From Mobula hypostoma (taxonomy: Eukaryota), in contig NC_086107.1 of NCBI RefSeq assembly GCF_963921235.1, forward strand, positions 100,194,001-100,258,000: DNA of 64,000 nt. The letters run 5' to 3'. Both the position numbers and the translations under genes were made by a program. Positions 21,086 through 58,320 of the stretch are shown piece after piece. Below the pieces are notes generated by a model. The model ran no database searches, was not told where the DNA came from, and was given only the letters and a program-made list of their open reading frames with translations. Position 1 is the stretch's first letter; each line of letters starts with the position of its first letter.

Positions 21086-22000
21086 AAATTCAAGCAACAC
21101 ACACACAAAATGCTGGTGGAACGAGCAGGCCAGGCAGCATCTATAGGAAGAAGTCGAGTTGACGTTTCGGGCCGAGACCCTTCATCAGGACTAACTGAAA
21201 GAAGAGATAGTAAGAGATTTGAAAGTGGGAGGGGGAGATCTGAAATGATAGGAGAAGACAGGAGGGGGAGGGATGGAGCCAAGAGCTGGACAGGTGATAG
21301 GCAAAAGGGATATGAGAGGATCATGGGACAGGAGGCCTAGGGAGAAAGAAAGGGGGGAGGGGGAACCCAGAGGAAGATGGAGTGCAGGCAAGGAGTTATT
21401 GTGAGAGGGACACAGAGAGAAAAAGAGGAAAAAAAGGGGGGGGGGAAATAACTAAATAAAGGATGGGGTAAGAAGGGGGGAGGGGCATTAACGGAAGTTA
21501 GAGAAATCAGTGTTCGTGCCATCAGTTTGGAGGTATTCTGTCTGGGTAGCCTCCAGCCTGATGGCATGAACATTGATTTCTCTAACTCCTGTTAATGCCC
21601 CTCCTCCCCTTTTTACCCCATCCATTATTTATTATTCTTTCCTTTTTTCTCTTTTTTTTCTCTCTGTGTCCCTCTCACAATAACTGCTTGCCTGCTGTCC
21701 ATCTTCCTCTGGTGCTCTCTCCCACTTTCTTTCTCCCTAGGCCTCCTGTCCCATGATCTTCTCCCTTCTCCAGCCTTCTATCCCTTTTGCCAATCAACTT
21801 TCTGGCTCTTAGCTCTATCCCTCCCCCTCCCACTTTCAAATCTCTTACTATCTCTTCTTTCAGTTAGTTCTGACGAAGGGTCTTGGCCCAAAATGTCATC
21901 TGTACTTTTTCCTATAGATGCTGCCCGGCCTGCTGCGTTCCACCAGCATTTTGTGTGTGTTGCTTGAATTTCCAGCATCTGCAGATTTCCTCGTGTTTGC
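21086..22000. mobile_element. Penelope-like insertion with inverted pseudo-LTRs (~900 bp palindrome)
   Basis: Arm 21086-21533 is the reverse complement of 21550-21971; the centre encodes FCLGSLQPDGMNIDFSN; direct repeat tttgctaaattca at 21080-21092 and 21996-22008. Confidence 0.85.
21157..21192 (-). ncRNA. Minimal type-I hammerhead ribozyme motif (Penelope-associated), catalytic core intact
   Basis: Minus strand reads AGUC-CUGAUGA-AGGGUCUCGGCCC-GAAAC-GUC-AACU; one helix-I mismatch. Confidence 0.7.
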
Positions 22001-22887
22001 TAAATTCACATAGCTCCACTGTACTTGCTAACATGATTCAGCAATTTAGTTATAATGGAATAAGGCTTGCCTTAATATGAGCTCAGAACAAATTAGATGG
22101 AGTGAGCCTGATAAAATGAGTGTTGACAAATAAGGCGACAAAATTCAAGGAAATTTCACCCATTGGCCTAGTGGGGTGGGGGGGGGGGGGGAGTAAATGG
22201 TAAAGGCACCCTGTATGTTTGGGCCAACCATTTAGCAGTCTCACTTTGGTGATGATTGAGCAGGCACAGGAAGGTAGTTCAATGAAAACAGACCTGATAC
22301 TTTAAACTGACACTGTCTAGTCACTGAAGTGAATAAACTCACATGACTTCTGTTTATCCTTCAAACATTATTGCTGAAATAATTTACTTGATCGTTATCT
22401 TAGTGCCATTTGTGAAATCAGCACTCAACTATCCGCAAACTCTGCTACCATTTCTCCTCCATTGCAATAATTTTCTGTTAAAGAAATGCTGAGCTGTGAA
22501 GTCTTCTGGATTGTGGAAGCTTCTATGTAAATTTTTCTATTTCTCTAATCTCATTAACCTCCACCCAAAAGTAAATGGCATTTATGAAGCAATCTCGAAT
22601 TGATGCACAAAGCTGAGGTGAAGACCGGAATTTTATCAAAGCGGTGACTCTTTAGGAGCATTTTAAAGAAAGGGGCTATGAAAGATTTTGAGAAATTTAG
22701 TGGGTGCAGGCTGAAGATTGAGATGTTGGTGATGATGTCTTGGGCGAAAAAATAAAAGCAGTGGATAATACATTCATTTGCATCCTGTTAAACTAGGTTT
22801 AATTGTCTCTTTTGAAAGTAAACCAGACTATGGAAAACTATTGTTGGGTACAGGAATAACAATTATTTTGTTACCTTTATCTTCTAG

Positions 22888-23060
22888 GTTGAGAAAGCCA
22901 ATTCCCGTGTGAAGCAGCTGAAACGGCAACTGGAGGAGGCAGAAGAGGAAGCCCAGCGTGCCAATGCTTCCCGCAGAAAACTACAGCGAGAGCTAGAGGA
23001 TACTACTGAAACTGCAGATGCAATGACCCGTGAGGTCAGCACGCTGAAGAGCAAGCTGAG
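22888..23060 (+). CDS. myh9: myh9 rod exon (~exon 40), 173 nt
   Basis: ttctag|; [38 protein letters not shown]...[10 protein letters not shown](R); AG|GTAAGA. Confidence 0.97.
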
Positions 23061-23994
23061 GTAAGAGGGTGCTTTATCCAGAAAGAATTCACTGTGGAGA
23101 TCATAAAACGTTACTGGGAATGGGCGAAGATTTTAAAACTCGCAAAGTTTAATAAATGTAATTATTACATTTATGAAATGTAACATAAATCTGATGGGGA
23201 ACTCCAGACTGAGAAGGTACTCTAAGAATACATGAAATCAAGTCATCATTATAGTGACATTGTTTACTATGTTTCTTAAACCATCTTTCAAGTCTCCATG
23301 CAACATAATTTCAAAGAAAGGAGAATTAAGTCATGGTTTGCAGAATAAAGACTTTCTGGATTTCATTGGCTGTCTATGTATTTGATAAACTGAAGCACTC
23401 CCAAATGGAGAGAATTGGGTTAGCAAACCTCTCTCATAAAACCCACAAGGTTTACTGGTTTTGGTCAGGATTGAATCCTCTCTCCAGTTTGGGTGCAATT
23501 TATATAAATATGGCTTGTATGGCCTTGGTTGGCTCTGATCCAATAAAGATAATTAAAATAATTAAGGGATTAGGGGATTATATCCCAGTGATGGGATCCA
23601 TAATGAAGTGCTGTTTTAGAGTTGGACCATGCCTCAGTAAAATTTTGAAGCAATCATGAGATGCTGGAAATGCAGCAACACACACAAATGCTGGGGGAGT
23701 TCAGCAAACCAGGCGGCATCTAGGAAAGTACAATCAACGTTTCAGGCCGTGATCCTTCAGCAAGACAGCTGACTTTCAGAATGTAGGCAGGCAGTTCAAA
23801 GGCTGTGAGTGGTGGAGATGGTCAGATTTGCATATCAAAAGGTGATAAATTGAAGTGAATATGTGGGGCTCAAGTACCAAATGATTGTAATCTAATTGAA
23901 CAATCGAGATTTAAAGCTAAATTGACATTAACTAAATCATAAGGCTTTTAGCCCACTTAAATCCCACAATTAATAAACTGCAAGAAAACATGGA

Positions 23995-24740
23995 AACTAT
24001 CATCCCCTCAAAGCTTATCAGAAAGCTTCAAGACCTTGGCCTCAATACCCCCTTGTTCAATTAGATCTTCGATTTCCTCACCTGCAGACTGCAGTCATTT
24101 TGGATTGACAACAGCATCTCCTCCATAATCTCCATCAGCACAGGTGCACCACAAGGCTCTGTGTTTAGACCCCTGCTCTGCTTTATTTATATTTATGACT
24201 GTGATGCTAAGCACAGCTCTAATGCCATATTCAAGTTTGCTGACAACACCACTGTCATTGGCCGAATCAAATGGGTAATGAATGACCATACTGGAGAAAG
24301 ATTGAAAATCTGGCTGAGTGTTGCCACAACAGCAACAGCTCCTCACTCAATGTCGGCAAGACCAAGCAGCTGATTATTGACTTCAGGAGGAGGAAATGAG
24401 GTCTATGAGCCAGTCCACATTGGGGGAATCGGAGGCGGAGGGGGGCAGCAACTTTAACTCCTCAGTGTTAAAAATTCTGAGATCTTATCCTGAACCCACC
24501 ACCTATGGACTCACTTTCAAGGACTCTTCATCTCATGTTCTCCATATTTGTTTATTTTTATTTTGTTTGCACCGTTTGTCACAAAAGCACATTAGATGTT
24601 TGTTCAACCTGATAGCTGCGGTCTTTCACTGATTCTACTGTTTCTTGGATTTACTGAGAATGCCTGCAAAAAATGTATCTCAGGGTTGTATATGGTGACG
24701 TATTTGTACTTTGATCATAAATTTACTTTGAACTTTGAAT
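23995..24740 (+). mobile_element. Rex1/L2-like LINE reverse transcriptase fragment
   Basis: STGAPQG..PLL...KFADNTTVIGRI (degenerate FADD motif); (TTTGAAC)n-like tail. Confidence 0.75.
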
Positions 24741-24984
24741 TTTGAAAATAATTGAAGGCAGGTTAGTCAAATCAATTGTATTTTTAGAATCTGCTTTTGA
24801 CTTCAGTCCATGTTATAGGTAAAAATATTTTGCTGGTTCTAAGGATACTTTAATGTTTCTTGTTGAGTGCTCTTAACTCTCATGGAGGTGAAAGAACTGA
24901 TTGTTAAAAATCCATTTTCCATTCCCCATCTCTGAAATCAATTGGTATAAACTCTGAAATTTTGTTTGATCTGTTTCCTTGTAG

Positions 24985-30660: not shown

Positions 30661-31136
30661 GGCTTTCTCCCATTTTGTCATCTCCAGTCCCAAAGAAGGG
30701 TTTCAGCCCAAAATGTCAACTGTTTATTCATTTCCATATATTCTGCCTGGACTGCTGAGTTCCTCCAGCATTTTGTGTGTTAATGTGGGCCGAAAGTTGT
30801 TTACAATGCTGTTATGTTCTAAAGAACGGAGGAACTAGCTGCTCAAGATATAGTTTTAAACTGACGTGACCATGAAGTGATCTTGTCTGCATCCACCAAA
30901 AATAAGCAATACACAGTATATTAATTGGCCTGTATCAAACAAGGCACCTACAGCTAAGTACAGTATTTTTCACTCATCTTGCAGAGATCAAGGAGGCCTG
31001 CCAAATTAAACTAAAATTGTCATTTAACACATCAAACATGATCATAGATCATGTTTCAGGCCAAGACCCTTCTTCTGGACTGGCACTACAACGGGTAGAC
31101 ACACTTGCCTAGTGCTTTACCAGAACCAACCTACCC

Positions 31137-33355: not shown

Positions 33356-33393
33356 AGTAGCCTGATGAAGGGTCTCGGCCCGAAGCGTCGACT
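33356..33393 (+). ncRNA. Hammerhead motif copy with a core mutation (GAAGC instead of GAAAC), in a Penelope-like terminus at 33340-33482
   Basis: cctgatgaagggtctcggcccgaagcgtcgact. Confidence 0.5.
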
Positions 33394-36389
33394 GCTTAAT
33401 CTTTTCCATAGATGCTGCCTGGCCTGCTGAGTTGCTCCAGCATTTTGAGTGCGTTGTTTGGATTTCTAGCATCTGCAGTTTTTCACTTGTTGCTGGAGAG
33501 TCTGGCAGCATCCGTGTAAGAGCCAATAGCACAGTAGGTGTTAGATGAACTGCAGAGGGGTGAAAGTTCATCTATCATCCACTGAATCCTGTTCCACCTT
33601 CCCCCATCTGCCTGCTCCACTTCCTGTTCTGGGCCCTGACATGAAGATCTGACAATTCCCTTTTCCTGACAAATGTTGCTCCTCCAGCAGTTCCCTTTTG
33701 CTTTGGAGATCAAGCGTTTGACACATTTTCCCCCCACGTTATAAATTGGACTGTTAAAGAAAGCTGACAGTGATTAATGAAATGCAGATATCACCTATCT
33801 TATTTCCAGGACTAGAAACTTTACTTTGGGGAGTAAAATAAGGGAGCAGATGAAAATGGGTATAGGGCAAGTGGTTGCTAAGAAACAAGTTAGAAATTTA
33901 CGTATCTCTCAGCAAATATCTGGTTGTACATCATGTCCCTTAGCCATGGTAGGGTGGTTCACAGTAGAACTGATTCTTTTTCAGCTAGTCATTGAAGGTG
34001 AAATTATCTAAGAAAACTTGGATTCACTGAGATGAAAGAAACTTGTGACTAGCCTGACATGAAACTGGACTGCGTAGGACATATATTTCTTTTACTGCAA
34101 ATAAATAAGGATGCAACCAACCATAATCAAATCTGATTGGGGTGAATTGGCGTTACATCATATTTAGTGTTTGGGACTTTTTTGCCACAGTCACGGCCAA
34201 ATGTAGACACTGAATCAATGGTTCAATTTAATATATAGAGAATGCATAGAGTATACAACCTGAAGTTCTTACTCTTCACAGACATCCACGAAACAAGTTA
34301 AACCCCAAAGAATGATACAAAAAGCTAGAATGCTTTTTAGCACCCCACAAGCAGCAGCAAAAGCATTATTCCCCCCTCCATTTCTCCAGCATAAACATCT
34401 ACACCCACCTTGCAAGCTAAGGCAAAGCCCCCAATGAGACCATGATCTGGAGTCCATCAAAAACTACAGTCCACCCCAACACTTCGACGTCTCACAGGCT
34501 CTCTCTCTCACTAATGAGGGAGAACAAGGTGTTGCTCCTGCCTCAGTGAGAGGGGAGACCAACAGCTCACAGTTCTGGAGCACTTCTGCCCCCAAACATG
34601 CATTATCCTCTGCAGTAAAAGGTAGCCATACCCTGGCACTGGGGCAAGGTTCATGGATTTCAGTGTGTTGTTTTGCACACTGACGTGCATCTTTGCAGCG
34701 TTGTGGGATTAAAGTTAGCAATGGCAATGAACCATCCTGTAATCAAAAAGCAAAGAGCTACAAATGCTGGACCACTGAAAGAAAATGGGAATCGAGGAAA
34801 ATGCTCGTCAGCTCGGGCAGCAGGAGAGAGAACTGATGTTTGATTTCCGTTACCTTTCATAAGAACTCGGACCTTCCCGGTGAGAGGTTGTGAATCCGAA
34901 ATTTGACTCTGCTTCTTCCTGCACAGATGCTGCACGATCTGCCCTGTGTAGGGGGAGAAGTGGAAGGAAAACATTGCAGTTAGCCTTGATAATGACTGAC
35001 ATGTACAAAGAAATCAGAGTTTTAAGAAGGTACATGTTCAACCACTGGTGAACAACCATGGCTGTATTAGACCTCCTTAATTACAGTGGAGAATTACCAA
35101 AGGTTTCTCTGTTTCACTGGGAAGGGATTCAATATGTATTCATTTTTGGCTTTTCTATAGCATCAGTGGTTTGCATAAAGTGCTGGGTGTAACATCTGAC
35201 TAAATCTAAATGCAATTGCCTCACAAGATCAGCGTCCTTTTTTTTTGCTCCACACAACTGCACAGCAGATAATTTACATCTTCCAAAGGTTTGCTTTCAG
35301 CAATCAGATACTGGTCAAGGACGTGTGTAGGATATACAGAGGAGCAATTTCTCTTTCTCCCCCTCCTGACAATGATAGAATCACCTGCAGGAATTAAAAA
35401 TAAAACCTGAGCTCAGTTCGTGCAGCAATCAGCTGGAGTTAAGAGCTACTGGACAGCTGCCAGGCAACAGGCAAGCCAACAGTTGTGTGTGGTCTAAAAC
35501 CTGAGTGTTTACTGTAACACGAAGTGAGGCACAAACTCACTTCTGTTCCTCGGTTAAGATGTGAGTTCACAATCAGTTTTAATATCACCAGCATATGTCA
35601 TGAAATTTTGTTAACTCTGCGACAGCAGTACAATGCAGTACATGATAATATAGCAGAAAAAGCGGAATTACAGTAAGTGTGTGTGTATATTTTTATATAT
35701 ATATATATATAAAAAGGTTAAATTAAATAAGTAGTGCAAAAACAGAAATTAAAAAATAGTGAGGTCATGTTCCTGGTTTCAGTGTCTATTCAGAAATCGG
35801 ATGGCAGAAGGAAAGAAGCTGTTCCTGAATTGTTGAGAGTGTGCCTTCCGGTTTCTGTACCTCCTTCCTGATGGCAACAATGAGAAGAAAGCATGTCCTC
35901 TAATCACAAACAAGAGAAAATCTGCAGATGCTGGAAATCCAAGCAACACACACAAAATGCTGGAGGAACTCAGCAGGCCAGGCAGCATCTATGGAAAGAA
36001 GTATGGTCGACATTTAGGGCCTCCAATAAATTTTTTTTGTGTCAGGATGATATGGTACTGGAGGTTAATTTTGGCCCAGTGTTCGTTTACATTAGAAGCA
36101 TGAATGTCAAACACTTGCATTCACCTTGAACTTTAGTCTCCCAGCTGCAGGATCCAAACAGCTGAGGTCAGATGTTTCTGAGAGCTGTGTGTGTCAGCTC
36201 CAATCTTTCTGACTGGAGAAATAATTTACCTTCCTGTCTGTCATATGACTACACATATTCAAACAACCACGCCATCAAGCATGGTTCATTGTTAAGTACA
36301 TTTAGAGATCCCATTGAAGCATAAAAAATTCTTAAGGTTTGTTTAAGCGATAATGGTCAGCATAAAGTTTTACAGTGCCAGTGACGGAA

Positions 36390-37020
36390 TCAGAATTAGG
36401 TTTAATATCACCAGCATGTGCCTTGAAATTTGTTGTCATGCGGCAGCAGTACAATGCGATACATAGTACTGGAGAGAGAGAAACTAAATTACAGTAAGTA
36501 TATATTTAATATATATACAGTGAAGTTAAATAAGGAGTGAGGGAGTGTTCATGGGTTCAATGTCCATTCAGAAATGGGATGGCAGAGGGGAAGAAGCTGT
36601 TCCTGAATCTCTGAGTGTGTGCCTTCAGGCTCCTGTACCTCCTCCCTGATGGCAGCAGAGAGAAGAAGGTTTGTCCTGAGGTGATGGGGGTCCTTGATGA
36701 TGGACGCTGCCTTCCTGAGGCATCGCTCCTTGAAGATGTCCTAGATTTAACGGATGCCAGTGCCCATGATGGAGCTGACTAATTTTACAGCTCTCTACAG
36801 CTTACTTTGATCCCGTGCAGTAGCCCCCTCACCCCATGTCCCCCCCATACCAGACGGTGATGCAGCCAGTCAGAATGCTCTCCCCGGTACATCCGTAGAC
36901 ATTTGAGAGTGTTTTCAGTGACATACTAAATCTCCTCAAACTCCTAATGAAATACAGCCGCTGTCTTGCCTTCTTTATGGCTGCATTGATATGTTGGGTC
37001 CAGGTTAGATCCTCCGAGAT
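36390..37020 (-). mobile_element. Rex1/Babar-like LINE 3' fragment (related copies at ~5090-5460 and ~35570-35900)
   Basis: EDLTWTQHINAAIKKARQRLYFIRSLRRF...ESILTGCITVWYG. Confidence 0.8.
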
Positions 37021-37467
37021 AAGTTTGAGGTTCAATTCTCTCTGCTGTCTGTAAGGAGCATTCACGTTCACCCCCTGACTGCGTGGGCTTCCTGTAGGTG
37101 CTTGATTCCTCCCGCCCACCACCTCACATTCCAAAGATGAGCGAGTTAGGCTTAGTAGGTTTTGGACTTGCTATGTTGGAGCCAGAAGTATGGCGACACG
37201 CGTGGGCTGCCCCCAGCACACCCTCGGACTGTACTAGTTGTTGGCACAAATGACATAGTTCACTGTAGTGTGATCACCATCATTATGTTCTGTGTTGTAT
37301 GACGTGGGTGATCATGGTCTATGAGCATGACTTCTCTAGGCAAATTCTACAGAAGTGGTGTGCCATTGCCTTCTTCCGGGTGGTGTGTGCAAGTCGGGTG
37401 ACCACCAGCCATTATCAATGCTCTTCAGAGATTGCCTGTCACTAGTCGTGTAACTAGGACTTGTGAT

Positions 37468-39442: not shown

Positions 39443-40117
39443 CACTCATTGGCCACATTATTAGGTGCACCTGCTTGTTAATGCAAATATCTAATCAGCC
39501 AATCACATGCCGGCAACTCAAGGTACAAAAGCATGCAGGCATGGTCAAGAGGCTCAGTTGTTGTTCAGACCAAACATCAGAATGGGGGAAGAAATCATTT
39601 TGACAGTGGAATGATTGTTGATGCCAGACAGGGTGGTTTGAGTATCTCAGAAACTACTGATCTGCTGGGATTTTCATGTACAACCGTCAAAATCAAAGAA
39701 CAATTATTATCAAAGTATGTATACTTTATACAACCTTGAGATTCGTCTCCTTACAGGCAGCCACAAAACTAAGAAACCCGATAGAACCCCTTAAAACAAA
39801 AGAAGAGCGTCAACTCTAGAGTCTACAGAGAATGGTGCGAGGAACAAAAAACGTTGAGTGAGTGGCAGTTCTGTGGGTGAAAACACTTTGTTAATGAGAG
39901 AGGTCAGAGGAGAATGGCCAGACTGGTTCAAGCTGACAGGAAGGTGACAGTAACTCAAATAACCACGTGTTACAACAGTGGTGTGCAGAAAAGCATCTCT
40001 GAATGCACAACACGTCGAACCTTGAAGTGGATGGGTACAGAACCAGAGACCATGAACATACACTCAGTGGCCACTTGACTGGGTACAGGAGATCCCGAGT
40101 AAAATGGCCACTGCATG
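39443..40117 (+). mobile_element. Internally deleted Tc1-like element, itself interrupted by a ~125-bp insert
   Basis: Termini cactcattggccac / tggccactgcatg|TA; N-terminal transposase remnant GMIVDARQGGLSISETTDLLGFSCTTV...RGQRRMARLVQADRK. Confidence 0.7.
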
Positions 40118-41534
40118 TACTTTTGCTGTTGACTTGCAAAGTATTGTGAAGATTCCCGTTGATGTTTTGTCTGTAATAGAATCAATCTGTTATTCACCCT
40201 GCAGTCAATTCAAACACTTGATTTGCTTAATCAGGGTCTGAACAAGCCATCTAATATTAAATCTGAAGTCTGAATGAACTGTCATGCTCAGTGTTTTAAA
40301 TTCATTCTCAGGGTTTCCCAACCTGGGGCCTAATGGTATTGGTCCATGGCATAACAAGGGTTGGGAACCCCTAGTTAGCATTGATATGCATTCTGCAATC
40401 CACAAAAGTCCCATGTCCCATGGCCCACAAGTCTCCTTTGCATCAGCAGCAAAATGCCATGAGAAGTATGTTCTCAATAATAAATTTGTGTTCCTTCAGA
40501 ATTCTCAGCACCACAGTCATTACAGTCAAGTGACTGTACAACCAGAATTCTAGAAATGACCAACAAACACAAAATGCTCAGCAGACCAGGCAGCATCTAT
40601 GGAAAATGGTAAATAGTCAACACTTCAGGCCGAGACCCTTCATCCGGACTCAAAAATGAGGGAGGATTCCTGAATGAAGTCACTGGAGAAAAGTACTGGT
40701 AGATCTGAGGCAGCCTCTTTATTCAACAAAACAAGATACAGCAGGCATCGTATGGAGACGCTTTTGGTGGAAAGGTCTGGCTTTGCCCAGCGCTACACAC
40801 ATTTTATGTTCTAAAGATCAAAGAACATTCAGGAGGATTCAGACAAAGCCATATTAACAATCGTCCCACCATCACTCCCAAAGCAAGTGTCACATCCATG
40901 CAATGGAACGTTGATTGGACTATGCAGACAATCAGCTGGGTACCTGTTTCCTGGTTTGCCTGGTCTGTGAATCGATTGCTGCATTAAAATCAAATCCACA
41001 ATCCAGATCTGAAGACAGGTGGCCGAAGCTATCTGCTAAATGAGCTCGAATGGGCAGAGCAGCAGTTGCCAGGGTGTGATACCAGGGAACTCTTACTAAG
41101 TCGGAATCACTAGGTTGTTCCAGGAGAGGAATCTCCGTGGATGCAGCCACCCCTCACACAAAGGACAGGACTGTGGTTGCTGGAGCCCAACATCCCAGCC
41201 CTGAGACATTGCTGCAGAATAGTGCACTTTTCTGCTAAATGGCCAAAGCCAAAGGATCCTCAGATGGTTCCTCAGCTGCCTTCGTTCCTTTGTAAGGTCG
41301 CAAGAGGTAGCAGGGTTCATTCTTTGATTACAAGTCCCGAAGTAACGAAATGGAGGCCCCAATTCAGATTTGTTCAGACAGGAGCTGAGGAACGATGAGC
41401 AATGTTCGTGCCACGTTAAGTGTAAGGCAATGAGGATCTTCACAAGGGAAGAGTCCAGCTACCTTCCTGGACTCTCAGTGGCACCGCCATCATTCACAGT
41501 TCAAGTTTAATTGTCATCCAACCATACATGAATA

Positions 41535-41970
41535 CACATTGAGGCCACCCTCAGGGTGGAGGAGCAACACCTTATATTCCATCTGGGTTCCCTCGATTCT
41601 GCTCTGGTAAACAAACCATCCACACCCCCACCCCCAGTTTCCGCAAGTTCCAACTCTGACCTTTCACCTCTTCTCCTCTGGGTCCCCTCCCTCTTGCTCT
41701 TCTCCTACAGTGTACCTTCCTCTGATAGGATTCTTCCTCAGCCCTTCCCCTTTCTCACCCACCTGGCTTCACCTATCACCCTCCAGCAAGCCTCTTTCTC
41801 CTTCCCCCCCCCACCTTTTTATTCTGGCATCTTCCCCCTTCCTTCTCAGTGGGTCTCTTGCCCAAAATGTCGACTGTTTACCCATTTCCATGGGTGCTGC
41901 CTGACCTGCTGAGTTCCTCCAGCATTTTGTGTGTGTTGCTCGGATTTCCAGCATCTGCAGACTTTCTTGC
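41535..41970 (+). mobile_element. Penelope-like element 3' portion
   Basis: EATLRVEEQHLIFHLGSL, CT-rich UTR, shared terminus ...cagcattttgtgtgtgttgc...gcatctgcag. Confidence 0.7.
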
Positions 41971-42905
41971 GTTTATGAATACTCATGAGTACAGTCAGAA
42001 GAAGCGGTGTTACTCCGGGGCCAACACACATCACCGAGCACGTGTAAGATATTTGTAAAGTCCAGTCACACAAGAAAATAAAGTCCCTGTTGCAGAAATC
42101 TGCAGCTGAGCGTAATACAGCTTGCCTTCTGCTGAGCGAACTCTAGGGGGCAGCACTGACTGCAGTTTGGATGCCATGCCACACTGCCTCTGGGGGAGCT
42201 CATCGACTCTGGCACCTCTCTCCTGGACATCAGAGTAAACAGGCAACATTGCAGCTTCAGGCACGGTCCTCACTACCACCAATGCCACGCAACTCCCCCA
42301 TTGTCAACATCCTGAGGATCAGAGATGAGGAAATCAAAGGGTGGGTATTCTGTGGCTCATAACTCTCCAGAGGCACAAAAATGTGAGGACACGGGTTGCG
42401 CACTTCAGATGCATGTAGTCTCAACACAGTAAGATAAACTGCTTCATCTTTGTTTAAGGAGATAAACTTGCATTGGTGGCAGTTTGGGGTGGCTCACCAG
42501 GTTGGTTCCTTGGATCAGGGGGTTATCTTATGAGAAGCAGTTGACCAGGTTGGACCCGTAAATGTCGGCGGTTAGAAGAATGAGACAAGTTTGCTTCTAA
42601 AAAGCAGGGAACTATAAAACTGCAAATGCTGGAAATCTGTGATTACAAACAAATGCTGAAAGCACTCAGTATCTGTAGAAAGTGAAACAGTTAACAACTG
42701 AGATTGTTCACCAGATTCCAAGGGAAAAGCTGAGCATGGGAAGTTTTCGAACTATTCATAAGCACAAGAGATTCTACAGTTGCAGGAAATCTTGAGCAAC
42801 ACACAAAAAATGCAGGAAGAACTCAGCAGGTCAGGCAGCATCAATGAAGAGGAACAAACAGTTGACGTTTTGGGCTAATCTCCTTCGTAAGGAGATTAGC
42901 CCAAA

Positions 42906-45419: not shown

Positions 45420-46480
45420 CCACATTAACTTAAGAGTGTCCATGGTCTGATAAGTAAGTTTGTTGACGACAGGAAGATTGGTGGAGCTGTAGATAGCGAG
45501 GACGGTTGTCTAACGATACGGAGGGACATGGCTGGAAAGTAGGGTGGAGAAATGGCAGATGGAAACCAATCTAAGTAAGTCAATTTTGGTTAACTTAATA
45601 CTGGCTGGGCGTGTCGAGTGGGTGGCAGGGACCTTTAGAACTGTTAATGTACACAGGGGTGCAAGTTCATAGCTCCCTGAAAGTGGCAAGACATACAGAT
45701 AGGGAAGGAAAGGGGCATGCAGGGATCTTGACGATAAGAGTTCGCACGTCATGCTGCAGCTGTACAAGACATTGCTTAGGCCACTTGGAGTATTGTGTGC
45801 AGTTCTGACCACCACAGTACGGAGGGGTAAGGTAGTGTTAAATAGAGCGCAGAAGAGACTCACCAGAATGTTGGCTGGAATGGAGGGCTGTAGTTACCAG
45901 GAAAGATAGGCTGGGATTGTTCTCACTGGAGCATGGGGGGCTGAGCAAAAACGTTACAGCGATTTACAAAATTATGACGATTATACAAGTATCACACGTG
46001 AAATGCTGGAGGAACTTGTTAAGTTAGGCAGCATCTTTAGAGGGAAATAAACAGTCCTCATCTCGGGCCAAGAATCCCCATTGGGGAAAGTCAGCCTTTT
46101 TTCAAGGGTGGGGGAATCTAAAACCAGAGGGCATGGGTTTAAGGCGAGCAGAGGAAACGGGTGCTCCCGTTTTAGGTCGTTGTAAGTTGTCGTGTGATTA
46201 GGTTGGGGTCAAATCGGGTTGCTGGGTGGCGCAGCTCGAAAAACTGGAAGGGCCTATTCTGTGTCGTATCTCCCAAGTAAATAAACTTCTGGAGGAGGTC
46301 TGATGGGAAATTGTTCTGCACAAAGGGTGGTCAAGGTATGGAACAAGCTGCTGAAAAGGTGACAGAGGCAGATATGATCACAGCATTTAAAATCCACCTG
46401 AACAGGTACATGGGGAGAAAAGGAACAGCGACGTGGGCTCACTGCAGGAAAATGGATTAGCACAGTTGGGCATCTTCGTT
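45420..46480 (+). mobile_element. Degraded CR1 fragments with nested SINE and Penelope pieces
   Basis: KFVDDRKIGG RT-like remnant; HLEYCVQF; ERVQRRFTRML-like sequence; boundaries approximate. Confidence 0.65.
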
Positions 46481-49360: not shown

Positions 49361-50869
49361 TAATGTTAAAGTGTCGAAGTGTTGCTCAGGCTGATCATTT
49401 TGGTTCACATGCTGCAGTGCAGATGATTTGTTTAATTGTCGTGAACTGTGTCAAGGAGGCTGAACTCACTTTCTGTTTGCTGTAAAACACTCTGTCATCT
49501 TAGAATCCTGTGGGTTTGCTTAACTATAAACACGAGATTCTGCAGATGTTGGAAATCTTCAGCAACACACAGAATGCTGAAGCAATTCAGCGAGCTCAGG
49601 CAGCACCTACAAAGGGGGAGTAAACAGTTCACATTTTGTGCCAAGGCCCTTAATGAGGACTAGAAAGGAAGGGGCAGAAACCGGAGTAAGAAGGTAGGGG
49701 GAAGTGGAAGGAGTGCGGGTGATAGGTGATACCAGGTGAGGGGGAATGTGGGTGGGAGAAGTAAGAATTGTAGAGGGTACAACTTTGCAGAGGATTGCTC
49801 AGAATTCCAAATAGTGTCAGTTTTTAAGTGTTGTCTAACCGGAGTTTCATAGAGCTGCAACATTACCTCACAGTTCTTGAGCTCAGTCCCCTGACTAATA
49901 AAGACCAACGCACCAAATGCCTTCTTAAATACCCTACCAATTTGTGTGGCAACTTTGAGGGACCCCCAAGATCCCACTGTTTCTCCGCTCTGCTAAGAAC
50001 TCTGTACTCTACCTTTGAGTTCAACCTTGCAAGGCGAACCACTTTGTTGTACTATAGGAAGGATGTGGAGGCTTTGAAGAGGAAATGAAAGTGAACAATT
50101 TAAAAACTAAGATTTGAAGTTTCCTGATGTATGCCTCGGGCTGCGAACAGGGGCCGATGATCATATTTACCTGGGATGTGGAAGAAAACTAGAGCGCCTG
50201 ATGCAAACCACACAGGGAGAACGTACAAACTCCACGCTGTCAGCATCAAGCCTCTGTCAGGCAGCAGCTCTACTAGCTGAGACACTGTGCTGTTTTTTTG
50301 AGTTGTGAAAAATAATTGCTGGGTGTGTCTCCACTGGAAATGGCATCAAACTGAAGTCTGTATTTAAATGCCTCCAGCTTCCCCCTCCCCCCCCCCCACT
50401 CGCAGGAAACTGAAGTTCATGGATTTTATTGTAGAATCCCACTGGTTGTCCCATCTCCCGGGGGAGGGAGTGCAGCAGTTTCAGACAGTGCAAGCAGAAT
50501 ACAGACTGTGACTCCAGCTCCCCCTCACAGCAGGGGAACTGTTCACAGTGTCAACAGCAGCCCTGCCCTGGGAACATTATGTTACAGTATGGCCAGTACA
50601 TGTTTATTTTTGGTGACTTGTGCTTCACCCAGGGCTTAATGGAGCCCCCAGAGTCACTGCTGGTGGATCCAAGCAAAGAGTGTGAGGAAAATTGAAGGAA
50701 GTGTGAACATGGACGTGGACCAAATTTCCCGTTCGTTGCATAATTCCGTATGCACTGCTCCCGAACTCCGAACGGTTGTACCTCTTTTGTGTTTAAAAAG
50801 AGTGATGAATCAGCGACAAGGACCTGTATGTTGTGCCGTTCATCTCAGAACATAGAGTGATAGAGCACA

Positions 50870-51345: not shown

Positions 51346-51413
51346 TATAGTTAATAACATTTTTCACTGTCTGTATTTTCTGTTCATGTTCTGGTTTTGC
51401 CTTGCTTTGCCAG

Positions 51414-51535
51414 TGTCACCCCGTGCTGAAGGCCTTCATGTGCGGATCTCTGAGTGGGACCTGTTCGACGCTGCTCTTCCAGCCCCTGGACCTTGTGAAG
51501 ACTCGCCTGCAAACTGTGCAAGGTTCAGTGAGTGG
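51414..51535 (+). CDS. slc25a38: slc25a38 coding exon 2, 122 nt
   Basis: gccag|; [33 protein letters not shown] (carrier motif PxDxxKxR; human [32 protein letters not shown]); GG|GTACGT. Confidence 0.96.
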
Positions 51536-52146
51536 GTACGTGTGCACCGGGAGTTCACCGGCAGTCTTGGCATGGGTTCATCATGGAAGAGTGAGAGAGT
51601 TAACCAAGGAGAGGAACACATCTAGTGGGCCTGGGGGCATAGTATTAAGTGTGAATGGCCTTAGAATGCAGACATCTTGATGCAGGCCAGTAACAAAGGT
51701 TGCGGGCAGTGAGACTGATGATGTCCCACGATCAATTTGAGCTTGATTCGTCGCTAACTGGAGACTGGACTTTCAATTTTGATTTGAAGCCCAGTGGATA
51801 TGATCTGTCCAGCTCACTATTTATATCCTCACACAAAGCCGATCCCCACTCTCCTTCAGATGAGAAACCCCATGGTTGATTGCCATTTCTTTGCTGGTCA
51901 TGGTAAAGGAACAAAAGTAGGATAGGCCAGTAAACCTTATTGGGAGATGCCAGTGTGTGAACGTTGTGTGCTTGGTTGTAGTGCCCTTACTGTTAAAGGT
52001 GTGTTGATGCCAGGAATGGTCATGTCAGCAGTTTGTAGATGCTCGATTTGGAATGGAATTTAAAACCATAAACCTCTCCACTGGACAGAAGAGTGAGTCT
52101 CTGCTAATACCTGTTGCAGATCACTGCAGGTTAATCTTTGGTGACA

Positions 52147-52318: not shown

Positions 52319-52367
52319 AATTCTTGGTGACATTTTGCTAAGAGCATTTTCTGTATCTTATCATCAG

Positions 52368-54232: not shown

Positions 54233-54306
54233 TCATTTGTCCGATGCATTCCCGGTGTGGGGATTTACTTCAGCACACTCTACTCCACGAAGCAGCACTT
54301 CTTCAG
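54233..54306 (+). CDS. slc25a38: slc25a38 coding exon 4, 74 nt
   Basis: ttgcag|; [24 protein letters not shown](S); AG|GTGAGC. Confidence 0.95.
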
Positions 54307-55667: not shown

Positions 55668-55773
55668 CGAGAGGAGCCCAACGGCGCTGGAGTCGGTGGC
55701 TTTAGGTGCCAGCGCTCGCACTGTAGCGGGCATCTGCATGTTGCCCGTAACCGTGGTGAAGACTCGATACGAG
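55668..55773 (+). CDS. slc25a38: slc25a38 coding exon 5, 106 nt
   Basis: ctccag|; [44 protein letters not shown]. Confidence 0.96.
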
Positions 55774-57626
55774 GTGAGTTTTGTGGCTGGTTGGGTCTCA
55801 GGGCTGTTTGGTAGATATGTGGCAGGCACAGATGGGTGGGCCAGGGCCATATGTATCCAACAGACCTTTACCTCGGGTCTTCGGAGTTGAGAAGAACGAG
55901 GGGTGACCTTATTGAGACACCAAGATCCTTCGGGGGGCATGACAGGGTAGACGTCAAGTTGTTTCCACTTGTGGCAGAATCTTGAATGAGGGGACATAGT
56001 TACAGAATTAGGGCAGTCATTTATAACTGAGGAATGAAGGAAATTCTCACAGAGGGTGGTGGATCTCTGGAATTCTTTATCCCTGAAGGTTGCAGATGAT
56101 GGATCTTTGGGAATATTTGAAGAGGAAGCTTGTATATTTTTGAAGGCTCAGGGAAATGATGGCTGGAGGGAGCTGATACAGAAGAGGAGATAAGGTCTGG
56201 GGCAGATCAACCATGATCACATTGAAGGGGACAGGCTTGATGGGCCAAGTCGCCTCTTCCTGCTCCTGTTTTCTCAAGTGTTTTAATACTACACTGCTGA
56301 TGCTGGATGACAGGATAATTGGAAACTGGGAGCAGGGTAATTAAAGGCAGGAACTGGTGTTCATCTGGAATATGGTAAAAACTGACTCCAGCTCAGGCAG
56401 GGGATGGAATTCTGTCTTTGTGGTCGTTGGACTGCAATGTGAAGTGAGTTTGGTAACTGAGTTCTACTCAGATTGGGTGCTCTAGGCCATTGCAGTAACT
56501 GAAGTTTCACACTGCTTTCCAAGGCTATACCAGACACTATTCCATTCATATATCAGTTTATCAGTTCCTGTCCTTTTTTAAACACTGCCTTCAGTCTCCC
56601 AGTCCCTCTGAAAACTTATTCCAAATAACTTCTACCTCAGCCCAATCTCTAATCTCTGCACACTCAGGTCTTCGGTATCACTTGCTGCCTTCTTCAAGGT
56701 CCTTCGCTCCCTGCTCCCACACATCCTGAGTTGTGTTCTGGTTCAGTGCAAGTTGTGTAGAGTTGGGAGATTGAGAGTAGGGATTCCACCTGTGATTCCA
56801 GCACCAGTAGGACAGAGCAAAGGCAGCAATCAAACGACAGTCTCTTTTCCAAACCCCACACTCCAACCACTTCTAGACCAACAGCAAATGGAGTACGAGG
56901 CATTTGTGTGGGTCTGTGTAGGGTCTCTTTCCAAGGGGGGGTGTGCTGTGGTCGTCACATCACTTGCATGGCCTGGTCACTGGGATCGTTCGAAGTCCCC
57001 AGCACATTTTGAAGAAATGCAGGACATCTTCCTGGTTTTCCAGGTTAACCTTCCTTCCTTCAATAAAGTGAGATTGACGTTGTCTTTTGCTGCCTGAGTG
57101 ACAATATGGCTGCTACTTTTGCTGGACTCCGCTTAAAACAAAAACTTTACATTCTGAGTCTCGTGGCTTCTGAATGTCCCAAGACAGCCTATAGCCAATG
57201 AAATGTAATGTCTAGTTTTACAGATAAAGCTGGCAGCCAAATTGTACACAGCAGGAGCCGAAAGCTCAATTGGGGATTTTGTGTGAATCAAGGTGCCGAG
57301 GAAGCTCTCTGCTCTTTGGATAGGATCTGTGGAGCCTTTAAAACCATCCTGAATAAGAACACTGCCTTTCCCATCAAAATACTGCCACCGAGCGTGTATT
57401 ACGTGTCCAAGTCTCTGTAGTGAGGCTCTTACTAAATGTTTCCAATTGATCAGGATTTGAGGGACCCTGTAAGATTGTGATAACTTGTGAAAGATCTTGC
57501 CAGTTGTTCCAAAGGGCAGCGGTGGAATCACGCAAAGATGTGTAACTGCATCTGGAACACGAAGGAAGATGGGAGCTCAGGAAATGGGAAAAGACAATTC
57601 CTCACAATTTGTGTCTGTGTCTGCAG

Positions 57627-57795
57627 AGCGGGAAGTTTCGATACGAAAGCGTGTTCAGTGCTTTGAGAAATATCTACAAGACTGAGGGTGCACGGGCGCT
57701 GTTTAGCGGACTGACAGCCACACTCCTCCGTGATGCCCCCTTCTCCGGGATTTACCTCATGTTCTACACGCAGACCAAGAAAGCAGTGCCTGAAA
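57627..57795 (+). CDS. slc25a38: slc25a38 coding exon 6, 169 nt
   Basis: ctgcag|; [52 protein letters not shown] (contains the LLRDAPFSG signature); A|GTACGT. Confidence 0.97.
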
Positions 57796-58284
57796 GTACG
57801 TGAGGGTGTTTGATACAAGATACCAGGGTGGGAGGGAGGGGGACTGTTGTTTCATACAGACATTGATTACATTGTGCCTGCTTTGCATTGCAATATCCTG
57901 GCACCAAAGGTAAGGCAAAGACCACGCTCTCCATTATACCCCAAACATTCCAAAATGGGGATCTAGTAAATGGAGTTAGTGATTGTCCATAAGTATTTTC
58001 TTTCTCAACTTGTCACATTTTAATTACAGGAACAGAAGGAGGCCAGTTATCCCGTCAAATCTGCTCTATTCAATAAAATCATGGATAAGTCCTAATCACA
58101 GCCTCAGCACCACATTATAGGAACACAACTTTATATATCCTCTTGCCAAGGAAAGCCCAAACAGCCAAGACCATTACAGCTACATAGAATAGTACAACAC
58201 AGGAATTGGCCCTTTGGCCCACAATGTTGTGCCAACCCAATTAAAATAGTTATTATTCGGCTCTAACTTCTCATCTTTTTTTCC

Positions 58285-58320
58285 GGTCCTGATGAAGGGT
58301 CTTGGCCCGAAACATCGACT
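58285..58320 (+). ncRNA. Minimal hammerhead motif in the sense strand of an slc25a38 intron (Penelope-like terminus 58270-58385)
   Basis: GGUC-CUGAUGA-AGGGUCUUGGCCC-GAAAC-AUC-GACU: core intact, helix I pairs, but the ACGU palindrome is broken (ACAU). Confidence 0.6.

What the first reader, a model, noticed from the sequence alone, without database searches (positions are those of the whole stretch)
21157..58320. The window's most abundant repeat carries a minimal hammerhead ribozyme
Seen: more than 10 copies of one short terminus, at about 10564, 20640, 21157, 21866, 23733, 30686, 31050, 33356, 40617, 41845, 42860, 46052, 49625 and 58285. By-eye consensus is AGTC-CTGATGA-AGGGTCTCGGCCC-GAAAC-GTC-GACT. 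This fits a type-I hammerhead: helix I AGUC/GACU, core CUGAUGA, helix II GGGUC/GGCCC, GAAA, a helix III reduced to the palindrome ACGU, and a GUC cleavage triplet. Established: Penelope-like elements carry such minimal hammerheads, which are proposed to self-cleave as dimers through the palindromic helix III. The adjacent remnant EEQHLIF(R/C/H)LGSLQPDGMNIDFSN fits a Penelope-type C-terminus. Inference: this genome holds a very high-copy ribozyme-bearing Penelope family that is likely annotated only as a generic repeat.
Basis: partly seen in the sequence, partly recalled or inferred. Interest (0 to 1): 0.8.

Follow-up and report, generated by a model that had tools for sequence, protein, structure and literature searches.

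The report
Penelope-element tail with minimal hammerhead
The repeat is the 3' end of a very abundant Penelope-like retrotransposon carrying the already-described "minimal" hammerhead ribozyme motif; the copies in this window are broken relics, so this is a well-verified but ordinary member of a known kind.

Summary
All 14 listed sites are copies of one repeat, the window's most abundant interspersed one. Its consensus is the stated CTGAYGA-A-GGGTCTCGGCCY-GAAAC-GTC flanked by TAGTC/GACTG.

Genome-wide, 191,200 sites match the 28-nt motif within 3 mismatches, against 0 in the reversed control.

The interpretation also holds. In full-length copies the motif sits in both pseudo-LTRs of a 3,515-bp unit. 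[quoted passage not shown]

The motif has every feature of the published PLE "min-HHR" (Cervera & De la Pena 2014):
- no helix III;
- an extra nucleotide after A9;
- an ACGU palindrome.

Caveats:
- The motif is not a terminus. Insertions run 64-116 nt past the GUC, which is the known PLE "tail".
- No window copy is intact. Two of 14 keep both core boxes.
- Rfam hammerhead models do not match.
- Covariation is absent within the family, but clear across four other min-HHR families in the same genome.
- The commonest variant has G10.1-U11.1.
- Insertion 5' ends do not clearly pile up at the cleavage site.

Self-cleavage itself remains untested. This is a new member of a known kind, notable mainly for its copy number.

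The parts
10495..11097 (-). 5'-truncated PLE copy: end of the EN reading frame (peptide remnant 10892-10960), 3' UTR, decayed hammerhead 10563-10598 (CTGAAGA kept, G12 to A), and tail. It lies antisense in an intron of the myosin heavy-chain gene.
   Evidence: BLAST to full-length unit, two HSPs at 79% and 70% identity; peptide; motif alignment
20571..20669 (-). Short PLE 3' fragment. The 5' half of the hammerhead is disrupted and GAAA has become AAAA. Tail present.
21086..21533 (-). PLE 3' fragment forming the left arm of a head-to-head inverted pair. Best-preserved hammerhead in the window, at 21157-21193: all core positions intact, but helix I pair 1.1-2.1 is broken.
   Evidence: 81% identity to the unit over 461 nt; exact 28-mer at 21161-21188; fails the strict descriptor
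21534..22009 (+). Right arm of the same inverted pair, with EN C-terminus remnant 21518-21586 and hammerhead 21865-21902 (CTGACGA kept, G12 to A, C15.2 to T). The palindrome around 21533/21534 produced spurious miRNA-like Rfam hits.
23659..23766 (-). Short PLE 3' fragment. The hammerhead CUGANGA box is lost.
30686..30780 (+). Short copy of an older subfamily (tail GTTTAC...). Core decayed (CCAAAGA, AAAA).
31046..31081 (-). Fragment holding only the hammerhead. U4 mutated (CAGAAGA).
33358..33491 (+). Copy that begins at the 5' edge of the hammerhead. CTGATGA intact, but A14 to G (GAAG) and one helix I base deleted. Tail runs to +101.
35901..36021 (-). It starts inside the hammerhead (unit position 26) and lacks CUGANGA.
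   Evidence: start at -12
40579..40650 (-). Short copy. U4 to G (CGGATGA); GAAGTG.
41540..41967 (+). Copy with an EN C-terminus remnant (41540-41594) and a badly decayed hammerhead (41840-41876) plus tail.
42801..42893 (-). Rearranged copy. The helix II region is replaced by a long local hairpin. Tail present.
46052..46085 (-). Very decayed motif remnant. Its score is within the range of the reversed-window control. Family membership rests on the adjoining tail sequence seen by eye.
49529..49662 (-). Older-subfamily copy. Core decayed (CTCATTA, AAAA).
58286..58385 (+). Older-subfamily copy. Both core boxes are intact, but G16.2 to A breaks the ACGU palindrome.

Best explanation
The repeat is the 3'-terminal part of a Penelope-like retrotransposon (PLE). 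That part comprises the end of the ORF, about 300 nt of 3' UTR, the hammerhead motif, and a 64-116-nt 'tail'.

SHOWN:
- The full unit is 3,515 bp.
- The 28-nt motif, with its 5-bp helix I, sits about 60 nt upstream of the start codon and again about 300 nt after the stop. It is therefore in both pseudo-LTRs of partial-tandem copies.
- The motif is the published 'min-HHR': a type-I hammerhead with CUGANGA, one unpaired A, a 4-bp helix II with a CUCG loop, GAAA, no helix III (A15.1-C15.2 abut G16.2-U16.1, giving the ACGU palindrome), GUC, and helix I UAGUC/GACUG.
- Insertions are 5'-truncated, often head-to-head, and end at two preferred points about 30-35 nt apart downstream of the motif.
- The window's copies are dead relics of such insertions.

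INFERRED from the literature on this class, not tested here:
- In a transcript, or pair of transcripts, carrying two copies, the ACGU palindromes pair to build a shared helix III. Each core then cuts after GUC, trimming read-through or tandem precursor RNA.

The insertion anatomy suggests that the RNA actually copied into DNA is usually not cut. Reverse transcription starts downstream of the motif and runs through it.
For: Family and copy number:
- 191,200 sites within 3 mismatches of CTGAYGAAGGGTCTCGGCCYGAAACGTC. Reversed controls give 0.

Descriptor, my own script implementing the published features:
- 28 hits in 255,480 bases of fetched loci, 0 in the reversed sequence, all from this family.

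Link to RT/EN:
- On the same strand, the peptide ...LGSLQPDGMNIDFSN is followed by the motif 331-357 nt later. This is seen in 7 instances at 6 of the 30 GIY-YIG loci fetched.
- L058 and L059 show the full layout HHR - ORF 1,043 aa - HHR at a 3,512-3,515-bp period. L060 keeps only its 3' HHR. In L057 both copies fail the motif match: the 5' one is cut inside helix II and the 3' one has an altered GAAA box.
- Pfam on the 1,043-aa frame: RVT_1 E 4e-5 and GIY-YIG E 0.004.
- GIY-YIG is above the curated cut-off in sister copies, at 29-30 bits.
- The nearest Atlas clusters carry HTH_animal/DUF8422/RVT_1/GIY-YIG in animals, score 0.98.

Recent activity:
- 131 of 131 scored matches to the RT part have E <= 1e-161, out of 48,355 candidates.
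- Six of them have open frames of exactly 1,043 aa.
- Four open frames are 98.7-99.3% identical over 3,129 nt.

PLE anatomy:
- 3' ends of 54 distinct copies fall at +64..+75 in 21 copies and at +95..+116 in 21 copies. This fits the 30-40-bp 'tail' and the two internal RT start sites reported for PLEs (PMC8557442 and PMC11167929, passages read).
- Inverted pairs and variable 5' ends are present.

Class match:
- PMC4209133 (main text read, parts 1-2 of 4) lists the extra nucleotide between 9 and 10.1, G10.1-C11.1, palindromic 15.2-16.2, absence of helix III, location in PLTRs, and occurrence in fishes, coelacanth and Xenopus.

Covariation:
- Across four further min-HHR families of this genome, with helix I/II imposed a priori, 78.5% of cells pair against 66.8 +/- 1.6 in shuffles (0 of 500 as high) and 30-50% in slid controls.
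- 35 cells change on both sides against 13.5 +/- 3.0 in shuffles.
Against: - No Rfam hammerhead model matches. This holds at gathering score or at E <= 10 in the window, and on an intact copy searched alone.
- Within the family there is no covariation. 0 of the 100 listed copies with G10.2 to A (of 814 in total) carry the compensating change.
- On 35 distinct copies the pairing and covariation measures do not exceed shuffles: 491 and 495 of 500 shuffles are at least as high.
- The commonest exact variant (85 of the 100 rows listed), which is also the one in the open-frame copies, has U at 11.1. That replaces the class's conserved G10.1-C11.1 pair with a wobble.
- Nearest-neighbour folding does not favour the active fold. 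The monomer MFE is -11.7 kcal/mol, against -11.1 +/- 2.75 for shuffles, and it pairs core GACG with CGUC. The designed double hammerhead scores -12.9, against a dimer MFE of -31.7.
- Insertion 5' ends give no clear sign of cleavage.
  - The ORF-bearing copies whose 5' limit could be read start at -237, -205, -16 and +20. L058's homology runs past the reference start, and none starts at +1.
  - Copies starting exactly at +1 number 85, against 25 at a control site (+6) whose 26-mer is stricter.
  - Of 20 of the 85 examined, 13 are fold-backs explained by helix I microhomology, 1 is a one-base deletion, and 6 are true ends.
  - All 6 true ends are 71-110-bp fragments. At the control site 7 of 25 are true ends.
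- In the only PLE studied in vitro, hammerhead mutants did not affect insertion, and no RNA-seq reads ended at the cut site (PMC11167929, passages read).
Confidence: 0.85

Rival explanations
1. The motif is a genuine hammerhead descendant, but self-cleavage is not a step of this element's retrotransposition. It would persist as a passenger, or as a structural element such as RNA dimerisation, RT recognition or helix I pairing. The copied RNA would be uncut.
For: - Every insertion keeps 64-116 nt beyond the GUC, so the 3' motif was not cut in the template.
- There is no clear excess of true 5' ends at +1.
- The most successful lineage carries G10.1-U11.1.
- Thermodynamics favours an inactive fold.
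- In PAc, hammerhead mutants did not change insertion in vitro and no reads ended at the site (PMC11167929, passages).
Against: - The 11 invariant core nucleotides, the GUC and both helices are kept in the open-frame copies and in at least five other families of the genome with unrelated helix sequences. That is hard to explain without selection on the hammerhead fold itself.
- PLE hammerheads of fungi cleave well, and metazoan ones cleave weakly as dimers (PMC4209133).
- My 5'-end test has small numbers and an imperfect control.
Confidence: 0.35
2. The short copies are an independent non-autonomous element (a retrozyme or SINE-like derivative made of hammerhead plus tail) mobilised in trans by the PLE, rather than 5'-truncated PLE copies.
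For: - 11 of 54 distinct copies begin within 4 nt of the 5' edge of helix I (-31..-28) and are only about 100-135 bp long.
- Retrozymes are reported to derive from PLE pLTRs in vertebrates (bioRxiv 10.64898/2026.07.22.740005, abstract and passages).
Against: - No hammerhead copy lies in a tandem array in the window: 10 TRF rows, none overlapping a copy.
- No short-period same-strand repeats of the motif appear among the 200 listed genomic places.
- Copy lengths grade continuously up to the ORF.
- Many of the copies starting at -30 are low-identity members of older subfamilies, where BLAST simply stops.
- Sequences upstream of such copies are unrelated to one another.
Confidence: 0.05
3. The hammerhead-like boxes are a chance resemblance in a repeat whose conserved function is something else, for example a promoter or protein-binding site in the pseudo-LTR.
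For: - Rfam models do not recognise it.
- There is no within-family covariation.
- The MFE is not unusual.
Against: - All defining features of a published class co-occur in the right order and spacing (PMC4209133).
- The same architecture recurs with different helix sequences in other families of this genome. There are 1,177 matches to a generic descriptor against 240 for the reversed pattern, and pairing is far above slid controls.
Confidence: 0.03

Closest known systems
min-HHR of Penelope-like elements (Cervera & De la Pena 2014, PMC4209133)
   Same: - Type-I topology.
- CUGANGA and GAAA boxes.
- One unpaired nucleotide between A9 and G10.1.
- No helix III or loop 3.
- Palindromic 15.2-16.2 (ACGU).
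- Short helix I (5 bp).
- Location in both pseudo-LTRs.
- Mostly single, dispersed, truncated copies, with some pairs on opposite strands 100-700 bp apart.
   Different: - Helix II is 4 bp here, against the 'larger than usual' 6-8 bp described. The other families found in this genome do have 6-8 bp.
- The dominant variant has G10.1-U11.1 instead of G-C.
- The copy number (191,200 within 3 mismatches) is over 20 times the about 4,000 and 9,000 called remarkable for coelacanth and Xenopus. The counting methods differ, so this is a loose comparison.
Poseidon PAc of Anolis carolinensis (Frangieh et al. 2024, PMC11167929)
   Same: - pLTR-ORF-pLTR layout with a hammerhead near the ORF start.
- Insertions end at two adjacent points inside the next unit (the 'tail'), matching internal initiation of reverse transcription.
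- Uncut RNA appears to be the template.
   Different: - In PAc the ORF starts at stem II and the cut site lies 26 bp inside the ORF. Here the whole motif lies in the 5' UTR, with the cut site about 60 nt before the ATG.
- The linker CX4CxxC points to the Neptune/Nematis type rather than Penelope/Poseidon. This rests on the motif only; no tree was built.
Neptune-clade EN+ PLEs of fishes (as characterised in PMC8557442, citing Arkhipova 2006)
   Same: - C-terminal GIY-YIG with cysteines in its core.
- CX2-5CxxC Zn-finger-like linker upstream: CKRNKCYTC in the frame.
- Pseudo-LTRs, 5' truncation, inverted adjacent copies, and tail.
   Different: Clade membership was not tested by phylogeny. No insertion bias for microsatellites was examined.
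Non-LTR retrozymes of animals (Cervera & de la Pena 2020, PMC7229834, listing/abstract only; bioRxiv 10.64898/2026.07.22.740005)
   Same: Type-I hammerheads related to PLE pseudo-LTRs, with likely dependence on PLE enzymes.
   Different: Retrozymes are short tandem units, each with a canonical hammerhead, that give circular RNAs. Here the copies are dispersed, not tandem, and contiguous with PLE coding sequence.
Canonical type-I hammerheads (Rfam hammerhead families; newt satellite 2, Schistosoma Sm-alpha)
   Same: The same catalytic core and GUC site. Dimer-dependent activity through a weak, palindromic helix III is the classical newt/ASBVd behaviour (PMC6155905, passages).
   Different: There is no helix III at all and no loop-loop tertiary contacts. 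The Rfam covariance models score nothing at E <= 10.

Membership tests
PLE min-HHR (type-I hammerhead without helix III) | Core box C3-U4-G5-A6-N7-G8-A9 | tested here: met
   CTGAYGA is in the family consensus and in all 28 descriptor hits. 191,200 genomic sites fall within 3 mismatches of the whole motif. In the window it is intact together with GAAA in 2 of 14 copies.
PLE min-HHR (type-I hammerhead without helix III) | Core box G12-A13-A14 followed by A15.1, and a U16.1-H17 cleavage site (GUC) | tested here: met
   GAAAC-GTC is in the consensus and in all descriptor hits.
PLE min-HHR (type-I hammerhead without helix III) | Open helix I formed by the sequences flanking the motif (4-5 bp) | tested here: met
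   UAGUC/GACUG (4 Watson-Crick pairs plus U-G), or CAGUC/GACUG in older copies. Helix I is 5 bp in 27 of 28 hits. The same complementarity marks a recurrent fold-back junction in DNA.
PLE min-HHR (type-I hammerhead without helix III) | Helix II hairpin closed by G10.1-C11.1 | tested here: inconclusive
   The helix GGGU/GCCC with loop CUCG is present. However, 85 of the 100 listed exact copies, and all open-frame copies, have U11.1, giving a G-U wobble. The helix is 4 bp, shorter than the 6-8 bp typical of the class.
PLE min-HHR (type-I hammerhead without helix III) | One unpaired nucleotide between A9 and G10.1 | tested here: met
   An A is present in every copy (bulge = 1 in 28 of 28 hits). 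A bulge of 1 also gave the longest helix II for most of the 40 members of the other families examined.
PLE min-HHR (type-I hammerhead without helix III) | No helix III or loop 3; positions 15.2 and 16.2 complementary, so that two copies can pair (ACGU) | tested here: met
   GAAAC is directly followed by GTC.
PLE min-HHR (type-I hammerhead without helix III) | Location in the pseudo-LTRs of an RT + GIY-YIG element | tested here: met
PLE min-HHR (type-I hammerhead without helix III) | Compensatory variation in helices I and II | tested here: inconclusive
   Within the family there is none. Across four other families of the same genome it is clear: 35 doubly changed cells against 13.5 +/- 3.0 in shuffles, and 78.5% paired against 30-50% when slid. 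The main family itself could not be put in that alignment because its helix II has a different length.
PLE min-HHR (type-I hammerhead without helix III) | Self-cleavage after H17, as a dimer | not testable with these tools
   No RNA run with raw reads was available. Folding energies are uninformative.
Rfam hammerhead families (canonical type I/III) | Score at or above the gathering threshold of a hammerhead covariance model | tested here: not met
   There is no hammerhead hit at gathering score or at E <= 10 in the window, nor on an intact copy, L058:6480-6600.
Penelope-like element, EN+ | Reverse transcriptase domain | tested here: inconclusive
   RVT_1 has E 4e-5 and 23.9 bits, below the 29.6 cut-off. 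The YIDD motif is visible in the translation. The nearest Atlas clusters carry RVT_1. No PLE-specific RT profile was available.
Penelope-like element, EN+ | C-terminal GIY-YIG endonuclease in the same frame | tested here: met
   The score is 17.8 bits in the 1,043-aa frame. Sister copies score 29.2 and 30.0 bits, above the 22.6 cut-off, and the genome search gives 31-35 bits.
Penelope-like element, EN+ | Pseudo-LTRs from partial tandem insertion, 5' truncation, and adjacent inverted truncated copies | tested here: met
   The window pair is 21086-21533 / 21534-22009.
Penelope-like element, EN+ | Optional 30-40-bp 'tail' at the insertion end | tested here: met
   There are two clusters of 3' ends, at +64..+75 (21 copies) and +95..+116 (21 copies), among 54 copies.
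Neptune/Nematis-type PLE | CX2-5CxxC Zn-finger-like linker between RT and EN | tested here: met
   CKRNKCYTC lies upstream of the GIY-YIG in the translation. The criterion is taken from PMC8557442.
Neptune/Nematis-type PLE | Placement in the clade by RT phylogeny | not tested
   No reference PLE sequences were on hand.
Non-LTR retrozyme | Head-to-tail arrays of short units, each with a hammerhead | tested here: not met
   None of the 10 TRF rows in the window overlaps a copy. No short-period same-strand repeats of the motif appear among the 200 listed places.

The most novel reading that the evidence does not exclude
This genome may hold the largest hammerhead-motif population yet counted in a vertebrate: about 191,000 sites, or one per 18 kb. 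They were produced by a PLE that still has open 1,043-codon frames.

The lineage that made most of the recent copies carries a weakened core pair (G10.1-U11.1). Templates were copied uncut, and 5' ends do not pile up at the cut site.

Together these would mean that the hammerhead is not needed as a ribozyme for PLE mobility. What it contributes may be structural. Helix I complementarity demonstrably shapes insertions: fold-backs are joined through the 4-nt GACT overlap, leaving the 28-nt core as the hairpin loop.
Probability: 0.25. Interest if true: 0.5.

Novelty: new member of a known kind. Interest (0 to 1): 0.3.

Why it matters
For annotation, a repeat that makes up the commonest interspersed sequence of this window, and about 191,000 sites genome-wide, can be labelled precisely. 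It is the PLE 3' end with a min-HHR, not left as 'unknown repeat'. The miRNA-like hairpin hits at 21.4-21.6 kb are explained as an inverted PLE pair.

For ribozyme and retrotransposon biology, the family offers an unusually large natural data set with near-identical open-frame copies in a vertebrate. The role of PLE hammerheads is still unsettled in the literature, and here it could be tested in several ways:
- comparing the C11.1 and U11.1 variants;
- comparing dimer and monomer constructs;
- mapping RNA ends.

It does not open a new category.

Tried and rejected
- **RNA evidence.** No RNA holder was listed. All 23 runs are kept as contigs and labelled RNA only by guess. Laying X1, X2, X5 and X19 showed contigs over the whole unit, no table of molecule ends, and nothing about cleavage or expression.
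- **Rfam.** No hammerhead match in three searches. The only hits near the copies are sub-threshold miRNA/snoRNA models on the inverted pair at 21407-21673.
- **Folding.** The monomer MFE is not different from shuffles, and the double hammerhead is not the predicted dimer fold.
- **Within-family covariation.** A G10.2-to-A subset and 35 distinct copies both showed none.
- **Segment conservation against a young unit.** The hammerhead segment (0.71-0.89 identity) is the best-kept segment in all 10 window copies compared, but only slightly above the tail (0.54-0.87). This is weak evidence.
- **5'-end pile-up at the cut site.** The result is inconclusive. Three of the 25 control rows were not classified, because my script picked a second occurrence of the anchor within the locus.
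- **Random genome sample.** I used listed pattern matches and small fetches instead, so my samples are biased towards copies with exact anchors.
- **Second PLE family.** I looked for a hammerhead in the family with C-terminus ...SPNGLNEA*. No CTGANGA...GAAA lies within 1.2 kb downstream in the 15 loci examined, and the relaxed descriptor run over all fetched loci found none.
- **PLE linkage of the other hammerhead families.** 0 of 22 upstream ORF fragments hit GIY-YIG in Pfam. One fragment (family Y, L153) aligns to the GIY-YIG core of the second PLE family at E 4e-4. The comparisons with the main ORF are not significant.
- **Earlier notes of this scan.** None fit.
- **Literature.** 'penelope' + 'hammerhead' + 'shark' returned 4 papers, none relevant. 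Lunse et al. 2017 (PMC5785218) is not held and is known to me only from citing passages. Supplements of PMC4209133, which hold the family alignments, were not opened, and those of the bioRxiv preprint are closed. They may already contain this or a close family.

Full report
**Observation**

The window is G000:C45:100194001-100258000 of a 3.48-Gb, 200-contig animal genome. Its first quarter holds myosin heavy-chain tail exons on the + strand.

A local-alignment scan with the 38-nt motif recovers all 14 plus two weak extras. The reversed window gives 5 hits at the same threshold, so the lowest-scoring copies are recognisable only through their flanks. BLAST with a full-length unit adds a copy at 35901-36021 that starts inside the motif.

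A self-BLAST depth map shows that every interspersed region with depth of 10 or more is a copy of this element. 'Most abundant repeat' is therefore right.

The 28-mer within 3 mismatches occurs 3 times in the window and in none of 100 shuffles. CTGAYGAAGGGTCTCGGCCYGAAACGTC within 3 mismatches occurs 191,200 times, and the reversed control gives none. That is about 3.5 per 64 kb, so the window is simply typical of this genome.

**What it belongs to**

A GIY-YIG profile search of the genome gave 27,350 first-look candidates, of which 150 were scored and 39 matched at E <= 0.001. At 6 of the 30 loci fetched, the domain ends in ...EEQHLIF(R/H)LGSLQPDGMNIDFSNF(R/C/H/S)*. The hammerhead motif follows on the same strand 331-357 nt later, in 7 instances.

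An upstream ORF fragment used as a query found 48,355 candidates. All 131 scored had E <= 1e-161, and six had open frames of exactly 1,043 aa.

Four such loci were fetched.
- L058 and L059 show the full layout: motif, about 60 nt, ATG, a 1,043-codon frame, stop, about 300 nt, then the motif again, with a period of 3,512-3,515 bp.
- L060 keeps only its 3' motif.
- In L057 both motif copies fail the match. The 5' copy is cut inside helix II, and the 3' copy has an altered GAAA box.

The frame has a weak RVT_1 match around a YIDD motif and a GIY-YIG match. GIY-YIG is above the curated cut-off in sister copies. A CKRNKCYTC linker precedes the GIY-YIG. This is the CX2-5CxxC feature that PMC8557442 gives for the Neptune and Nematis clades.

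The nearest Atlas clusters are animal proteins with HTH_animal/DUF8422/RVT_1/GIY-YIG. The four open frames are 98.7-99.3% identical over 3,129 nt, so amplification was recent.

**The motif**

Read as RNA, it is UAGUC-CUGAYGA-A-GGGU(CUCG)GCCY-GAAA-CG-UC-GACUG. That is a type-I hammerhead with the following features:
- both core boxes;
- a GUC site;
- a 5-bp helix I;
- a 4-bp helix II;
- one unpaired A after A9;
- nothing between C15.2 and G16.2.

A script implementing these features found 28 hits in 255 kb of fetched loci, none in reversed sequence, and none in the window.

These are the features that Cervera and De la Pena (PMC4209133, main text read, parts 1-2 of 4) list for the 'min-HHR' of Penelope-like elements. 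Those features include the extra nucleotide, the palindromic 15.2-16.2 pair, the location in the PLTRs, the predominance of single truncated copies, and pairs on opposite strands. That paper also proposes the dimer mechanism and reports low activity in vitro.

First, the motif is not the terminus. In 54 distinct copies, the homology ends at +64..+75 in 21 and at +95..+116 in 21, counted from the GUC. That is just past the next unit's start codon. This bimodal end is the 'tail' of PLEs (PMC8557442). It matches the two internal reverse-transcription start sites found for the Anolis element PAc (PMC11167929).

Second, the window copies are relics. Two of 14 keep both boxes. The best one (21157-21193) has a broken first helix I pair, and the copy at 58286 has lost the palindrome.

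Third, the Rfam hammerhead models do not see the motif, even on an intact copy at E <= 10.

**Covariation**

Inside the family I found none. Of 814 copies with G10.2 to A, none of the 100 listed has the compensating change. On 35 distinct copies no measure exceeds shuffles. This is what neutral decay of dead copies from one lineage predicts, so it says little.

A generic pattern with a longer helix II (CTGANGA-N14-20-GAAACGTC) gave 1,177 matches against 240 for the reversed pattern. It revealed at least five further families. Forty members were fetched with their flanks. Most have a single unpaired nucleotide, a helix II whose family pattern is 6-8 bp, and their own helix I of up to 6 bp, though many individual members are decayed.

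I took 25 members of four of these families, all of equal length, and imposed the hammerhead pairs a priori. The results:
- 78.5% of cells pair, against 66.8 +/- 1.6 in shuffles (0 of 500 as high) and 30-50% in slid controls.
- 35 cells are changed on both sides, against 13.5 +/- 3.0 in shuffles.
- The number of pairs with any double change (6 of 11) does not exceed shuffles.

The sequences are related within families, so this is good support for the class in this genome but only indirect for the main family.

**How it works**

The mechanism stated in the literature is that two copies pair through ACGU to form helix III and cut after GUC, trimming tandem or read-through transcripts. I could not test it. 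No RNA run with raw reads was available.

Several observations argue that cleavage is at least not obligatory for copying.
- Every insertion contains sequence downstream of the 3' motif, so that motif was uncut in the template.
- The ORF-bearing copies whose 5' limit could be read start at -237, -205, -16 and +20. L058's homology runs past the reference start.
- The commonest variant has U at 11.1: 85 of the 100 listed exact copies, and all the open-frame copies.
- The predicted fold pairs core GACG with CGUC.

A direct test for 5' ends at the cut site gave 85 copies starting at +1, against 25 at a control position whose anchor is stricter. Of 20 of the 85 examined:
- 13 are fold-backs. An inverted arm runs through the motif to the base of helix I and joins the forward arm through the shared GACT, leaving the 28-nt core as the loop.
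- 1 is a single-base deletion.
- 6 are true ends.

All six true ends are 71-110-bp fragments. At the control site 7 of 25 are true ends. There is therefore no clear excess, although the numbers are small. This agrees with the PAc study, in which hammerhead mutants did not change insertion and no reads ended at the site (PMC11167929).

**Verdict**

The finding is real and correctly interpreted, but it is a new member of a known kind. Its points of interest are three:
- the scale, about 20 times the counts called remarkable in 2014, with the caveat that the methods differ;
- the near-identical open frames;
- the G-U variant together with the fold-back junctions, which bear on the unsettled question of what PLE hammerheads are for.

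Noticed in passing
G000 loci L112-L151 (e.g. L114, L119, L125, L144, L133); none in the window: At least five further min-HHR families exist with unrelated helix sequences. Helix II examples are GUCACC/GGUGAU, GGCUUC/GGAGCC, GUUGCC/GGUAAC, GCCUCUC/GAGUGGC and GAUGGCAG/UUGUCAUC. All have one unpaired nucleotide and GAAAC-GUC. The generic pattern gives 1,177 matches against 240 for the reversed control.
   Followed up: partly
G000 loci L009, L010, L012, L014, L018, L019, L021-L026, L028, L034, L036: A second RT + GIY-YIG PLE family (C-terminus ...RRWIERLQTHSPNGLNEA*) lies mostly in arrays near contig ends, for example within 7 kb of the end of C12 and at 4-106 kb from the starts of C75, C21, C67 and C11. 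Several units carry short CCCTAA runs downstream. No CTGANGA...GAAA was found within 1.2 kb after the stop. An EN+ PLE at chromosome ends with reverse-complement telomeric repeats would be unusual.
   Followed up: partly
G000 loci L061, L063, L066, L067, L079 (also L073, L076, L064, L074): A fold-back junction recurs. The inverted arm ends at the 5' end of CUGACGA and joins the forward arm at +1 through the 4-nt GACT shared by both strands of helix I. The resulting DNA is a long hairpin with the 28-nt hammerhead core as its loop.
   Followed up: partly
window 21407-21673: Sub-threshold Rfam hits to plant miRNA and snoRNA models (MIR2118, MIR408, snoR125 and others) fall on both strands. They are artefacts of the head-to-head PLE pair, whose palindrome centre is at 21533/21534.
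   Followed up: yes
window 6140-16492 (+): Exons encoding a myosin heavy-chain tail (Myosin_tail_1, profile positions 527-991). The PLE copy at 10495-11097 sits antisense in one of its introns. A Mito_carr exon lies at 51351-51677 (+).
   Followed up: no
window 3645-4344: An 18-bp tandem array (about 32-38 copies, TTGGATGAGTTGGATGGA) is open in several frames. It gives weak, meaningless Pfam hits (LED_rpt, Amelogenin).
   Followed up: no
window 40056-40122 (-): A 67-nt hairpin matches the mir-9256 model below threshold (34.7 bits against a gathering score of 80, E 0.003). It is adjacent to, but not part of, the PLE copy at 40579-40650.
   Followed up: no
window 33358, 58286, 23766, 40650; loci L005, L033, L051, L059: 11 of 54 distinct copies begin within 4 nt of the 5' edge of helix I (-31..-28). 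It is unresolved whether this is a real 5'-end hot spot or BLAST stopping where older subfamilies diverge.
   Followed up: partly
window 36832-37170 (-), 24065-24370 (+), 62003-62287 (-): Remnants of other mobile elements: an ALKBH8_N-like match, a weak RVT_1 match and a weak Tc3-type transposase HTH match.
   Followed up: no
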